Shown here: in pieces, positions 1 through 1,567 of the stretch
How the letters are laid out: every line of letters begins with the position of its first letter
Numbering within the stretch: the first letter of the stretch is position 1
Source: Escherichia coli
Lineage (GTDB): Bacteria > Pseudomonadota > Gammaproteobacteria > Enterobacterales > Enterobacteriaceae
Assembly: GCF_003334355.1 (NCBI RefSeq)
Contig: NZ_QOWP01000085.1
Direction: 5' to 3' (one strand)
DNA length: 1,567 bases
The notes under the pieces: model-generated
Database searches by the model: none
Told to the model about the DNA's origin: nothing
The model's input: the letters and a program-made list of their open reading frames with translations, nothing else
Program-made: the position numbers and the translations under genes

Positions 1-1145
1 GACGATGCGGCTGCCGTTTTTGAGGATTCTGCACGGGTTTCCGACGCTTTCGCGTTCGTTTCGGATGTCTTCGCTGCGGAAGCAGACTTCGCTGCTGCGC
101 TGGCCTGTACAGCGGCTTCGCCAGCATTCGTTGTGGCTGTTGAAGCTGACGATGCAGCACTTTCTGCCGATTTTCCGGCGGCGGTGGCACTGGCTGAGGC
201 CTGCCCGGCACTTGTTGACGCGGCACTGGCAGATAATGCAGCCGCTGTTTTTGAGCCTGCCGCAGCTGAGGCGCTCTGTCCCGCTGCCGTTTCAGAAGAC
301 CTGGCGTTCGTCTCGGACGTTTTTGCCGCCTTCGCAGAATTTGCTGCCGCCGTTGCCGAGGAAGCGGCACTACTGGCGCTCGAGGCTGCGCTCGTTTCTG
401 ATGATTTTGCCGCCTCTTTTGAGGCCGCCGCATCCCGGGCTGAGGTGGCAGCTTCTGACGCCTTCGTGGTCGCGGCGGATGCAGAAGTGGCTGCTGATTG
501 TTGTGACGCTGCCGCATTCGTTTCTGACGTTTTCGCCGCAGCGGCACTGGTAGCTGCCGCGCTTTTTGAGGACTCTGCAGCAGCAGCACTTTTCGATGCT
601 TCACTGGCCTTTGTTGATGCCGTTCCTGCGCTGGAAGATGCTGACTGAGCAGATGATGCAGCCTGTCCGGCTGACGTGCTGGCGGCACGAGCTGAGCCTG
701 CAGCATCGGTTGTATGAGTTGCCGCCTCACTGGCAGATGTGCTGGCATCACTGGCTGACTTCTTCGCGGCTGCCGTGTTCTGTGCCACTGCGGACGCGTT
801 ACGCGCCACCTCTTCCACCATCAGTTCAAAACGTCGCAGAGCCTCCGGACGGGCATCATCCTCCGTCATGGCACCGAGAAAATCATTCAGCGTACCGGGT
901 CGGGAATCTTCATACACGGTGATGGTCCCGGCATGTGACGGCGGGAATCCTTCCACCAACAGAATAACGCTGTACTGACCGTACTCAACGTCCATGCTGT
1001 AACGCCCGGCTTCATCCGGATTTTCTGAGGCCAGCGTGTTCACCACCACCGCGGTGCTGTTACGTTTTGCTTTCAGCTGGATTGTGCAGTTCTGTACCGG
1101 TTTTCCTGTGCCGTCTTTCAGTACACCTGAAATCTTTACTGCCAT
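1..1145 (-). CDS. stf: Side tail fibre protein Stf (lambda orf-401-like), N-terminal 381 codons; 3' end runs off the window at position 1
   Basis: Hand translation of the minus strand from ATG (plus-strand 'cat' at 1143-1145) gives MAVKISGVLKDGTGKPVQNCTIQLKAKRNSTAVVVNTLASENPDEAGRYSMDVEYGQYSVILLVEGFPPSHAGTITVYEDSRPGTLNDFLGAMTEDDARPEALRRFELMVEEVARNAS, followed by a long Ala/Ser/Thr-rich region. The frame is open for 381 codons with no stop to the window edge. The N-terminus matches my recollection of lambda Stf/orf-401 and the gene sits directly downstream of lom as in lambda. Not in the ORF track because it lacks an in-window stop. Confidence 0.9.
   Translation of the reverse strand, partial: MAVKISGVLKDGTGKPVQNCTIQLKAKRNSTAVVVNTLASENPDEAGRYSMDVEYGQYSVILLVEGFPPSHAGTITVYEDSRPGTLNDFLGAMTEDDARPEALRRFELMVEEVARNASAVAQNTAAAKKSASDASTSASEAATHTTDAAGSARAASTSAGQAASSAQSASSSAGTASTKASEASKSAAAAESSKSAAATSAAAAKTSETNAAASQQSAATSASAATTKASEAATSARDAAASKEAAKSSETSAASSASSAASSATAAANSAKAAKTSETNARSSETAAGQSASAAAGSKTAAALSASAASTSAGQASASATAAGKSAESAASSASTATTNAGEAAVQASAAAKSASAAKTSETNAKASETRAESSKTAAAS
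3..806 (-). repeat. Protein-level heptad repeat array within stf (about 38 contiguous heptads, consensus x-[T/S]-S-A-[S/E]-x-A)
   Basis: Splitting Stf residues 114-379 into consecutive heptads gives Ser at position 3 in 31 of 38 heptads, Ala at position 4 in 25 of 38, and Ala at position 7 in 37 of 38, with no phase shift across the array. Counts are from hand translation. The DNA itself is not an exact tandem repeat. Confidence 0.7.
807..1145 (-). other. Stf N-terminal non-repetitive domain (residues 1-113), the part of phage tail fibres that usually attaches to the tail
   Basis: Residues 1-113 have mixed composition (aromatics, Pro, charged residues) with no heptad periodicity, in sharp contrast to the downstream Ala/Ser array. 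The attachment role is taken from general knowledge of lambdoid and other phage fibres, not shown by this sequence. Confidence 0.5.
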
Positions 1146-1148
1146 ATT

Positions 1149-1154
1149 CACCCC
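1149..1154 (-). promoter_or_regulatory. Putative Shine-Dalgarno region for stf
   Basis: Minus-strand sequence upstream of the stf ATG is ...UUUUUUGUGGGGUGAAU-AUG. The G-rich run GGGGUG sits at -9 to -4 relative to the A of ATG. Weak match to the GGAGG consensus; spacing is acceptable. Confidence 0.35.
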
Positions 1155-1156
1155 AC

Positions 1157-1183
1157 AAAAAAGCCCGCCTGAACAGGCGGGCT
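1157..1183 (-). terminator. Rho-independent terminator downstream of lom (minus-strand orientation)
   Basis: Minus-strand RNA would read AGCCCGCCU-GUUC-AGGCGGGCU followed by UUUUUU: a perfect 9-bp GC-rich stem (plus-strand 1162-1170 pairing with 1175-1183), 4-nt loop, and a 6-U tract (plus-strand A-run 1157-1162). It lies 27 nt after the lom stop. In the plus orientation no U-tract follows the hairpin. Confidence 0.65.
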
Positions 1184-1209
1184 GTCATAACACTGTGTTA
1201 CCTGGCTAA

Positions 1210-1567
1210 TCAGAACTTATAACCGACACCCACGATGAAACCGTCAGTGCGCCAGTCGCCACTGCCGGAGCCTTCATAAGCAATATCAATGGCCACGGAT
1301 TCGGTCGGGTTAAACTGCACGCCAGCTCCCCACGCCAGAGACGTGTTGCTGTGGCGACCGTCATCACTTCCGGTCAGCACGTCGTGCGTTTTCCCCTTGT
1401 TGTCAGTTACGCGGAGATAATCCCCGGAGAAAGTCGACACACGGCTGTAAGCCATACCCGCCATCGCATACGCGCTGAACCATTCATTCACGCGCACAGA
1501 CGGCCCCGCCATCACGCTGAACCAGCGGTTACGCACGGAATCTTCATGCCAGCGGGTATCGCTGTAA
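1210..1567 (-). CDS. lom: Lom outer membrane beta-barrel protein (Ail/Lom/OmpX/PagC family), C-terminal ~118 codons; true start lies beyond position 1567
   Basis: Minus-strand translation reads ...YSDTRWHEDSVRNRWFSVMAGPSVRVNEWFSAYAMAGMAYSRVSTFSGDYLRVTDNKGKTHDVLTGSDDGRHSNTSLAWGAGVQFNPTESVAIDIAYEGSGSGDWRTDGFIVGVGYKF then TGA (plus-strand 'tca' at 1210-1212). The frame stays open upstream of the track's GTG at 1536 through to the window end. The C-terminal aromatic residue and alternating hydrophobic last strand are typical of outer-membrane beta-barrels. Sequence matches my recollection of lambda Lom. Confidence 0.9.
   Translation of the reverse strand, partial: YSDTRWHEDSVRNRWFSVMAGPSVRVNEWFSAYAMAGMAYSRVSTFSGDYLRVTDNKGKTHDVLTGSDDGRHSNTSLAWGAGVQFNPTESVAIDIAYEGSGSGDWRTDGFIVGVGYKF

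What the first reader, a model, noticed from the sequence alone, without database searches (positions are those of the whole stretch)
1..1145. Six-frame ORF track misses the main gene and offers antisense shadows instead
The real stf CDS is absent from the track because it has no stop in the window. The track instead lists four overlapping plus-strand ORFs across the same DNA. One of them (133-648) translates to an Ala-rich pseudo-protein that could be mistaken for a novel low-complexity protein; it is a reverse-strand shadow of the GCN/TCN-rich stf codons.
Basis: seen in the sequence. Interest (0 to 1): 0.25.

Follow-up and report, generated by a model that had tools for sequence, protein, structure and literature searches.

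The report
Antisense shadow ORFs over prophage stf
The real gene here is the start of a well-known lambda-type phage side tail fibre gene (stf) on the minus strand, and the plus-strand ORFs over it, including an Ala-rich one that matches lambda's long-annotated 'orf206b', are by-products of the fibre's Ala/Ser-rich repeat rather than genes.

Summary
The window is 100% identical to an E. coli prophage. On the minus strand it holds the 3' part of lom, a terminator-like hairpin, and the first 381 codons of stf, which start at 1145 and run off the left edge.

The Stf fragment has a full-length PF08400 domain (E 9e-72). It matches the solved Ur-lambda Stf collar domain (E 9e-52). It then continues into uninterrupted heptads, the proximal coiled coil.

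The four plus-strand ORFs exist. ORF 133-648 is the counterpart of lambda orf206b and matches PHROG family phrog_560 (E 2e-81).

Evidence that 133-648 is a shadow:
- All 69 of its Ala codons lie opposite Stf Ala codons, because GCN reads GCN on the other strand.
- Its openness is what synonymous shuffles predict (P 0.17-0.83).
- It has no ATG and no Shine-Dalgarno-like sequence.
- Its 5' boundary varies among relatives.

The 5-553 frame is broken at 22 different positions among 56 relatives.

A simple codon score favours the antisense frame in the repeat. Two GenBank phage records annotated these shadows instead of stf. Interest is low.

The parts
3..1145 (-). stf (annotated stfR in RefSeq), first 381 codons of a 1132-codon side tail fibre gene. 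The ATG is at 1145-1143 and the gene runs off the left edge of the window.
   Evidence: Open frame. Full gene in L004 5747-9145. PF08400 E 8.8e-72. PHROG tail-fibre families. 86% identical to lambda orf-401.
873..1145 (-). Stf N-terminal collar domain, residues 1-91. Boundaries are taken from Ur-lambda gpStf numbering. This domain anchors the fibre on the tail.
   Evidence: PDB 9e7m/9mgh chain matches residues 1-94, E 9.4e-52. Domain map from PMC12617516. CarboxypepD_reg-like fold hit, E 7e-6.
3..842 (-). Ala/Ser/Thr-rich heptad repeat (x-A-x-x-S-A-x), the proximal trimeric coiled coil of the fibre, from residue 102 onwards. It continues beyond the window to about residue 475.
   Evidence: Lag-7 autocorrelation z = 7.6-9.5 at every multiple of 7. 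There are 51 heptads in one register from residue 119. DNA repeats are mostly spaced by multiples of 21. Coiled-coil assignment in Ur-lambda.
133..648 (+). Shadow ORF, the Ala-rich 'orf206b' frame. The frame is open from base 1. The full ORF is 249 aa and starts at window -101.
   Evidence: Listed. phrog_560. 82% identical to lambda orf206b. Ala-to-Ala codon mapping. Openness expected from Stf. No ATG and no Shine-Dalgarno-like sequence.
5..553 (+). Shadow ORF, the Leu/Pro/Arg-rich frame. The full ORF is 255 aa and starts at window -214.
   Evidence: Listed. Its first 77 aa, upstream of the window, match phrog_3324. 22 distinct stop positions among 56 relatives and 15% synonymous variants.
566..922 (+). 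Shadow ORF in the same frame as 5-553, after the stop at 551.
   Evidence: Listed. No family hit. Only 7-15% of variants are synonymous in this frame.
739..978 (+). Shadow ORF in the same frame as 133-648, over the stf collar-domain codons.
   Evidence: Listed. No meaningful family hit.
1036..1209 (+). 57-aa ORF across the stf start and the lom-stf hairpin. It is annotated as a hypothetical protein in two GenBank phage records and is probably spurious.
   Evidence: Listed. CDS at the same place in ev099 and phi458. No family hit.
1162..1183 (-). Terminator-like hairpin between lom and stf: 9-bp stem, 7 G-C pairs, followed by TTTTTTG.
   Evidence: Found. Folded (z-score only -1.3 for the 63-nt stretch). 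A 'terminator' feature is listed under the match in the mEp460 and Ayreon records.
1210..1566 (-). 3' part of lom (Ail/Lom outer-membrane beta-barrel). The stop codon is at 1210-1212.
   Evidence: Translation. phrog_108 Lom, E 1.8e-65. RefSeq annotation.
2..820 (-). Second open minus-strand frame (stf +1), 273 codons in the window and a 336-aa ORF in the genome. It is another shadow.
   Evidence: Found. Its length is within the synonymous-shuffle range in two of the three designs (P 0.37 for the global shuffle and 0.048 for the local one; 0.003 for codon permutation, which does not keep the protein). 10 distinct stops among relatives and 16% synonymous variants. No PHROG hit.

Best explanation
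Positions 3-1145 of the minus strand encode the N-terminal 381 residues of a lambda-type side tail fibre, Stf. The fragment has three parts: a collar domain that anchors the fibre on the tail, a short linker, and the start of a long trimeric coiled coil built from about 51 heptads of the form x-A-x-x-S-A-x.

The plus-strand ORFs are not genes. They exist because the coiled-coil codons (GCN, TCN, ACN, AAA, GAA) almost never produce a stop when read in the other frames.

In the frame of ORF 133-648, each antisense codon is made of the complements of stf codon positions 2 and 1 plus the third position of the preceding stf codon. GCN (Ala) therefore reads GCN (Ala). A stop can arise only opposite NNT-CAN or NNY-TAY. 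The Stf protein sequence leaves only about six such sites in 263 codons, and only about three of them can be reached by a synonymous change.

Shown here: the identity of stf, the frame geometry, the shuffle tests and the comparative stop pattern. Inferred: that the plus strand is not translated. No expression data were available.
For: Identity of stf:
- PF08400 covers 1-134/134, E 8.8e-72.
- PHROG tail-fibre families match, E down to 5.5e-129.
- 86% identical to lambda orf-401.
- The solved Ur-lambda collar domain matches with E 9.4e-52.
- Gene order is J-lom-stf-tfa, and the window is 100% identical to an E. coli prophage.
- The heptad periodicity has z of about 7.6-9.5, matching the coiled-coil domain described for Ur-lambda.

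Comparative data from 56 unique collinear relatives:
- The stf frame has no stops.
- Polymorphic sites by stf codon position are 70/65/231 in the repeat and 11/3/39 in the collar.

Shadow nature of ORF 133-648:
- 69 of 69 Ala codons lie opposite Stf Ala codons.
- The open length of 262 codons is ordinary under synonymous shuffling: P 0.17 for the global shuffle and 0.83 for the local one. The median P is 0.58 over 74 alleles, and none is below 0.05.
- Few potential stop sites exist in the span.
- The upstream boundary is polymorphic: a stop at -143 is present in 30 of 56 sequences, through a change that is mostly synonymous in stf, GCA/GCT.
- The frame has no ATG, only GTG candidates without a Shine-Dalgarno-like sequence, and the same holds in lambda.
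- There is no Pfam or NCBIfam hit.
- The 5.8-billion-cluster protein database yielded only 22 clusters. The homologous DNA occurs at 16,365 places in 4,944 E. coli genomes.
- RefSeq annotates only stf here.

The 5-553 frame has 22 distinct stop positions among relatives, and 15% of its variants are synonymous.
Against: - The orf206b frame is open from window -143 to 645 in all 56 collinear relatives.
- 58% of variants are synonymous in that frame, close to the 63% of stf. Third positions coincide, so this cannot tell the two frames apart.
- The ORF matches a PHROG family and an annotated lambda CDS.
- It scores higher than stf on a simple codon log-odds measure within the repeat.
- A BLOSUM-based test of replacement conservativeness favoured stf only weakly (paired P 0.35).
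- The 5-553 frame is more open than synonymous shuffles predict in 78% of 74 alleles. The same NCT|A dicodon depletion is seen in neighbouring genes, 0.23 there against 0.19 in the repeat.
- No ribosome-profiling, proteomic or strand-specific RNA data could be consulted.
Confidence: 0.93

Rival explanations
1. The Ala-rich plus-strand ORF (orf206b / phrog_560) is a real translated antisense gene embedded in the stf coiled-coil region. The DNA would then be dual-coding.
For: - The frame is open in all 56 collinear relatives between window -143 and 645.
- It has a positive codon log-odds score, higher than stf in the repeat.
- It is annotated as a CDS in lambda NC_001416 and grouped as a PHROG family.
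- By construction its product has heptad periodicity.
Against: - The openness is what the Stf protein sequence forces.
- The frame has no ATG and no Shine-Dalgarno-like sequence, and its 5' end varies among relatives and in lambda.
- No promoter-like site was found on either strand of the window.
- The composition is extreme, with 50 Asp+Glu and 2 Lys+Arg in 249 aa.
- Gene callers seldom call it, and RefSeq does not.
- A CRISPRi knock-down in lambda gave no phenotype, the same as for stf itself. This result is uninformative.
Confidence: 0.03
2. The plus strand is transcribed as an IsrG-like cis-antisense small RNA that modulates stf expression. It would make an RNA rather than a protein.
For: - There are weak Rfam isrG (RF01390) matches on the plus strand at 471-561 (30.6 bits, E 3e-6) and 149-397 (24.9 bits).
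- In Salmonella, IsrG is an experimentally detected sRNA that overlaps the putative phage tail fibre gene STM2243 in antisense and is expressed inversely to it (PMC2330248).
- Terminator-like sites lie on the plus strand at 375-392 and 541-560.
Against: - The scores are far below the family's gathering score of 100.
- No isrG match reached the threshold in 18 related loci.
- No promoter-like site was found in the window.
- The matched stretches contain the coding repeat for AAKTSE-type heptads, so the resemblance is most simply shared tail-fibre coding sequence. GCN-rich DNA is also self-complementary.
Confidence: 0.05
3. The Leu/Pro/Arg-rich ORF in the 5-553 frame is a real gene, because the frame is longer than synonymous shuffling predicts.
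For: - P is about 0.0004-0.002 in the source genome.
- P is below 0.05 in 78% of 74 alleles.
- The 5' part of the ORF matches phrog_3324.
- It is annotated as a CDS in phage ev099.
Against: - There are 22 distinct stop positions among 56 close relatives. For example, 17 sequences have a stop at window 302.
- Open lengths range from 104 to 395 codons.
- Only 15% of variants are synonymous in this frame.
- The cause is depletion of the NCT|A dicodon. It is equally strong in neighbouring genes (7 observed against 30.8 expected) and disappears when the next residue is kept fixed in the shuffle (P 0.09-0.17).
Confidence: 0.01

Closest known systems
Side tail fibre Stf of phage lambda (Ur-lambda gpStf; lambda PaPa orf-401 + orf-314) and the E. 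coli prophage paralogues that RefSeq names StfR
   Same: - 86% identical over residues 1-286.
- The same PF08400 collar domain.
- The same position after J and lom and before tfa.
- The same heptad coiled coil after the collar.
   Different: - This allele is intact and 1132 codons long, and it sits in a chromosomal prophage next to pinQ/ydfK.
- Lambda PaPa carries a frameshift that splits the gene (paper text).
- The distal half lies outside the window and was not compared.
Lambda orf206b (lambdap90, NP_040603.1) and PHROG family phrog_560 ('unknown function')
   Same: - The plus-strand ORF 133-648 lies in the same antisense frame over the same part of stf.
- It is 82% identical to orf206b over 118 aa.
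- Both match phrog_560, with E 7e-119 for the full ORF here and 1.7e-59 for lambda.
   Different: - Length and start differ: 249 aa here, 206 aa in lambda, and 245 aa in phi458, all with GTG starts.
- I found no evidence in the searchable library that any member is expressed.
Shadow (antisense) ORFs opposite compositionally biased genes, the kind of spurious ORF collected in AntiFam (from my own knowledge; not tested here)
   Same: These are long stop-free antisense frames caused by the codon composition of the real gene. They are called by gene finders and carried over into protein databases.
   Different: Here the third codon positions of the two frames coincide and GCN maps to GCN. The shadow therefore looks conserved, scores well on codon statistics, and has formed its own PHROG families.
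IsrG sRNA of Salmonella (Rfam RF01390)
   Same: It lies on the strand antisense to a phage tail fibre gene. There is weak sequence and structure similarity to window 149-397 and 471-561.
   Different: The scores are 25-31 bits against a gathering score of 100. No promoter was found. IsrG overlaps the 5' end of its target gene, whereas these matches lie inside the coiled-coil codons.

Membership tests
Lambda-type side tail fibre Stf | N-terminal 'prophage tail fibre N-terminal' domain (PF08400) | tested here: met
   residues 1-134 match model positions 1-134 of 134, E 8.8e-72.
Lambda-type side tail fibre Stf | Sequence match to the solved collar domain of Ur-lambda gpStf | tested here: met
   chain 9e7m_Ta, residues 1-94, E 9.4e-52. 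The entries are identified in PMC12617516.
Lambda-type side tail fibre Stf | Gene order J - lom - stf - tfa on one strand | tested here: met
   source genome; lambda; PhiR30_1.
Lambda-type side tail fibre Stf | Long coiled-coil shaft after the collar domain | tested here: met
   51 heptads in register, lag-7 z of 7.6-9.5. No structure prediction was run.
Lambda-type side tail fibre Stf | Distal receptor-binding domain, and assembly that depends on Tfa | not tested
   This part lies outside the window. The full ORF (1132 codons) and a downstream tfa gene exist in L004.
Lambda orf206b / phrog_560 | Significant match to the family profile | tested here: met
   E 2.2e-81 for the window part, and 6.8e-119 for the full ORF over profile positions 1-249 of 249.
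Lambda orf206b / phrog_560 | The family is a real protein (translated, or under selection of its own) | tested here: not met
   The openness is as expected from Stf. There is no ATG or Shine-Dalgarno-like sequence. The 5' end is variable. Translation itself cannot be tested with these tools.
Genuine antisense overlapping gene | ORF longer than expected given the sense protein and its codon usage | tested here: not met
   For the 133-648 frame, P is 0.17-0.83 and the median P is 0.58 over 74 alleles. The 5-553 frame is nominally significant, but this is explained by general NCT|A depletion.
Genuine antisense overlapping gene | ORF kept intact with conserved ends among relatives | tested here: not met
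   The 5-553 frame is broken at 22 positions. The 133-648 frame keeps its 3' stop, but its 5' limit is polymorphic. Open lengths range from 144 to 479 codons across 85 loci.
Genuine antisense overlapping gene | Substitution pattern that shows selection on the antisense frame | tested here: inconclusive
   Third positions coincide, so 58% of variants are synonymous in the antisense frame against 63% in stf. The BLOSUM comparison was not significant.
IsrG sRNA (Rfam RF01390) | Covariance-model score at or above the gathering score (100 bits) | tested here: not met
   30.6 and 24.9 bits. There was no hit at the gathering threshold in 18 related loci.
IsrG sRNA (Rfam RF01390) | Own promoter and terminator on the antisense strand | tested here: inconclusive
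   no sigma-70-like site in the window. Two weak terminator-like sites lie on the plus strand (375-392, 541-560). These are consensus scans only.
Ail/Lom outer-membrane protein (flanking gene) | Match to the Lom family profile | tested here: met
   phrog_108, E 1.8e-65, profile positions 82-199 of 199. One search gives sub-threshold OmpX/Rck-type hits because the gene is cut by the window.

The most novel reading that the evidence does not exclude
The orf206b frame is a real, translated antisense gene that shares its DNA with the Stf coiled coil across lambdoid phages. In that frame the third codon positions coincide and Ala codons are self-complementary, so two heptad-repeat proteins could be encoded at once. 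The usual conservation tests cannot detect this arrangement.
Probability: 0.03. Interest if true: 0.6.

Novelty: already known. Interest (0 to 1): 0.13.

Why it matters
The value is mainly for annotation quality.

- The Ala/Ser-rich coiled-coil part of stf produces antisense ORFs that score better than the real gene on simple codon statistics.
- Lambda's reference record still carries one of them, orf206b.
- Two PHROG 'unknown function' families, phrog_560 and phrog_3324, appear to be built from them.
- At least two GenBank phage genomes, ev099 and phi458, truncate stf and annotate the shadows instead.

Anyone who mines 'hypothetical' phage proteins, or scans contig fragments with an ORF list that drops edge-truncated genes, will meet this artefact. 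No new biology is indicated.

Tried and rejected
- **Synonymous versus non-synonymous counts to separate stf from the orf206b frame.** This is uninformative by geometry, because the third positions coincide (63% against 58% synonymous).
- **BLOSUM62 conservativeness of replacements.** The trend favours stf (-0.04 observed against -0.34 expected; antisense -0.50 against -0.54), but the paired test gave P 0.35.
- **CAI against neighbouring genes.** It discriminates only weakly (0.714 against 0.680).
- **Codon log-odds.** It favours the wrong strand within the repeat.
- **The excess openness of the 5-553 frame.** I followed it up as a possible overlapping-gene signal. I rejected it after the comparative stop map and after finding the same NCT|A depletion in neighbouring genes. 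A heptad-position-specific shuffle did not explain it (P 0.001). A shuffle that keeps the next residue did (P 0.09-0.17).
- **Tandem Repeats Finder.** It found nothing. The repeat is visible only at the protein or heptad level and as dispersed 21-nt-phased DNA repeats.
- **tblastn of the antisense protein against phages.** It returned nothing, possibly because BLAST's low-complexity filter masks the Ala-rich query.
- **The lambda ribosome-profiling paper (PNAS 2013).** It is not held in the library. A related paper had no relevant text or supplements.
- **Literature searches for orf206b / lambdap90.** They gave only a CRISPRi table entry (non-essential, like stf) and a strain genotype.
- **isrG membership.** Rejected on score.
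Full report
**Observation.** It does not contain the minus-strand frame that begins at ATG 1145-1143. That frame is open for 381 codons down to base 3 and has no stop in the window. The tool does not list ORFs that run off an end. The plus-strand starts '133' and '5' are themselves edge artefacts, because both frames are open from base 1-2. In the source genome the ORFs start at window -101 (249 aa, GTG) and -214 (255 aa, ATG). A second minus-strand frame is also open from 820 to 2. Four of the six frames therefore lack stops over 1-550.

**What is on the minus strand.** The window is 100% identical to the chromosome of E. coli 2018-05-5CC, where it lies in a lambdoid prophage. The gene order there is tape measure ... 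J, lom, stfR (1132 codons), tfa, pinQ. Homologous DNA occurs at 16,365 places in 4,944 of 5,426 complete E. coli genomes and in 239 phage records.

The 381-residue fragment has these properties:
- A full-length PF08400 'prophage tail fibre N-terminal' match, 1-134 of 134, E 8.8e-72.
- Strong PHROG tail-fibre matches.
- 86% identity without gaps to lambda orf-401 over residues 1-286.
- A match to the solved collar domain of Ur-lambda gpStf, PDB 9e7m/9mgh, E 9.4e-52.

The Ur-lambda cryo-EM paper (PMC12617516) divides gpStf into a collar domain (1-91), a linker (92-101), a proximal coiled coil (102-393), a hinge and a distal coiled coil. The collar domains form a dodecameric ring at the gpV-gpM junction. 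Here, residues 119-475 form 51 uninterrupted heptads x-A-x-x-S-A-x, and autocorrelation at every multiple of 7 has z = 7.6-9.5. Most of the DNA-level direct repeats are spaced by multiples of 21 nt.

Upstream lie a terminator-like hairpin (1162-1183, minus strand) and the 3' part of lom.

**Why the plus-strand frames are open.** In the frame of ORF 133-648, each antisense codon consists of the complements of stf codon positions 2 and 1 and of the third position of the preceding stf codon. GCN therefore reads GCN.
- All 69 Ala of the ORF lie opposite the 69 Stf Ala codons.
- Ser gives Asp, Glu or Leu. Thr gives Val, Lys gives Phe, Glu gives Ser and Gln gives Cys.
- A stop in this frame needs NNT-CAN or NNY-TAY in stf.

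Between window -143 and 645 the Stf sequence offers only six Gln codons. Most of the preceding codons are Glu, Gln, Lys or Arg(AGR) codons, which cannot end in T without changing the protein. Only about three sites could make an antisense stop by a synonymous change.

**Homology.** ORF 133-645 matches PHROG family phrog_560 ('unknown function') with E 2.2e-81. The full 249-aa ORF covers the whole profile with E 6.8e-119. It is 82% identical over 118 aa to lambda orf206b (lambdap90), a CDS annotated antisense to orf-401 in NC_001416. Lambda orf206b falls in the same PHROG. The first 77 aa of the other long plus ORF (the 5-553 frame, upstream of the window) match phrog_3324.

Two GenBank phage records show the practical error. 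In ev099 (LR597635) and phi458 (OP434518), the stf frame is intact for 722 and 953 codons. The annotators nevertheless kept only its distal part and called the antisense ORFs as hypothetical proteins, including the 57-aa ORF 1036-1209.

The family consists of the same antisense ORF.

**Is any plus-strand ORF a gene?**

1. Synonymous-codon shuffles of the full stf gene keep the protein and the codon usage. The orf206b frame (262 open codons) is ordinary under them, with P 0.17 (global) and 0.83 (local). Over 74 unique alleles the median P is 0.58 and none is below 0.05.
2. I retrieved 80 related loci from IMG/VR. Among 56 unique collinear sequences, 90-97% identical:
   - The stf frame never has a stop.
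   - Polymorphic sites fall 70/65/231 on stf codon positions 1/2/3 in the repeat, and 11/3/39 in the collar domain.
   - The 5-553 frame has 22 distinct stop positions, and 15% of its variants are synonymous.
   - The orf206b frame keeps its 3' stop at 646 in all 56 sequences. Its upstream limit is polymorphic: a stop at -143 is present in 30 of 56, through a change that is mostly synonymous in stf, GCA/GCT.
   - Open lengths in that frame range from 144 to 479 codons over 85 loci.
3. The orf206b frame contains no ATG. Its GTG candidates have no Shine-Dalgarno-like sequence, here or in lambda. No sigma-70-like promoter was found in the window.
4. The product would be 39% Ala, with 50 Asp+Glu and 2 Lys+Arg. 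It has no Pfam or NCBIfam match.
5. Only 22 small clusters of such proteins were found in a database of 5.8 billion clusters, with lengths of 138-227 aa. RefSeq annotates only stf.

**Tests that do not discriminate.**
- The third codon positions of stf and of the orf206b frame coincide. Synonymous fractions are therefore similar, 63% against 58%.
- The BLOSUM comparison of replacements leans towards stf but is not significant.
- CAI differs little.
- A codon log-odds score trained on neighbouring genes gives the antisense frame +39 bits and stf +16 bits in window 3-800. Stf wins clearly only in the collar-domain part, 801-1145, with +44 bits while all other frames are negative. This probably explains the mis-annotations.

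**An anomaly and its resolution.** The 5-553 frame is more open than synonymous shuffles predict. P is about 0.0004-0.002 in the source genome and below 0.05 in 78% of 74 alleles.

Stops in that frame come from NCT, NTT or NTC followed by an A-starting codon. NCT|A is depleted in the repeat, with 2 observed against 10.8 expected. The same dicodon is equally depleted in the neighbouring prophage and host genes, with 7 observed against 30.8 expected, a ratio of 0.23. A shuffle that also keeps the following residue removes the signal (P 0.09-0.17).

The signal is therefore a general context bias against CTA/TAG at codon junctions, not selection for an ORF. The many stops among relatives agree with this.

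**An RNA alternative.** Rfam isrG (RF01390) gives weak plus-strand matches at 471-561 (30.6 bits) and 149-397 (24.9 bits), against a gathering score of 100. In Salmonella, IsrG is a detected sRNA that overlaps the putative phage tail fibre gene STM2243 in antisense and is expressed inversely to it (PMC2330248). The matched stretches contain the coding repeat for AAKTSE-type heptads, so shared tail-fibre coding sequence is the simplest reason for the resemblance. No isrG match reached the threshold in 18 related loci. I keep an antisense RNA as a low-probability rival.

**Comparison with what is known, and verdict.** The real feature is the well-studied stf gene, and nothing here departs from it. 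The Ala-rich shadow is lambda's orf206b under another length. The finding is correct and ordinary.

Its small added value has three parts:
- The shadow is linked to orf206b and to two PHROG families.
- The frame geometry explains why the shadow looks conserved and 'coding'.
- Public records are shown to fall into the trap.

**Not done.** No expression data could be consulted. The lambda ribosome-profiling paper is not held. The membership lists of the PHROG families could not be inspected.

Noticed in passing
window 3-791 (minus strand); continues to L004 about 7721: Stf residues 119-475 are 51 heptads x-A-x-x-S-A-x in a single unbroken register. Ala fills heptad position 2 in 47 of 51 repeats. 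This is an unusually regular small-residue coiled coil.
   Followed up: partly
L055, L058, L070, L073, L076, L083 versus L004 (first 1430 nt of stf): In the alignment with the window's stf, six related alleles show 630 gapped columns in total. That would equal 30 heptads of 21 nt and would suggest in-register repeat recombination that changes fibre length. The gaps were not checked to be a single block.
   Followed up: no
window 1162-1183 (minus strand): A strong terminator-like hairpin (9-bp stem followed by TTTTTTG) lies between the lom stop and the stf start. The stf ATG is only 17 nt downstream. Expression of stf probably needs read-through, such as late antitermination. Two phage records list a 'terminator' feature under the match.
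   Followed up: partly
window 1036-1209 (plus strand): A 57-aa ORF spans the stf start codon and the hairpin. It is annotated as 'hypothetical protein' in GenBank records ev099 and phi458, and it has no family match.
   Followed up: partly
window 149-397 and 471-561 (plus strand): These are sub-threshold Rfam isrG matches (25-31 bits against 100). The Salmonella sRNA IsrG is antisense to a phage tail fibre gene, so that Rfam family may itself overlap tail-fibre coiled-coil coding repeats.
   Followed up: partly
L004 5206-5404 (minus strand), outside the window: Rfam IS009 (RF02111) matches at 227 bits inside the annotated tail fibre assembly (tfa) gene. The same match is found in lambda and in five other loci. 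This 'RNA family' lies within a protein-coding gene.
   Followed up: no
L004 neighbouring genes and stf: The NCT|ANN dicodon (CTA across a codon junction, TAG on the other strand) occurs at only about 0.2 of expectation, both in stf and in the neighbouring prophage and host genes. This lengthens one antisense frame generally.
   Followed up: yes
window 2-820 (minus strand); L004 7741-8751: The stf +1 frame is also open, as a 336-aa Arg/Gln/Pro-rich ORF in the genome. The cause is that 55% of stf codons have C at position 2. It has no family match and is broken in some relatives.
   Followed up: yes
L004 3752-5747: The prophage ends next to ynfT, ydfK and pinQ, a recombinase gene adjacent to tfa. 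RefSeq names the fibre gene stfR.
   Followed up: no
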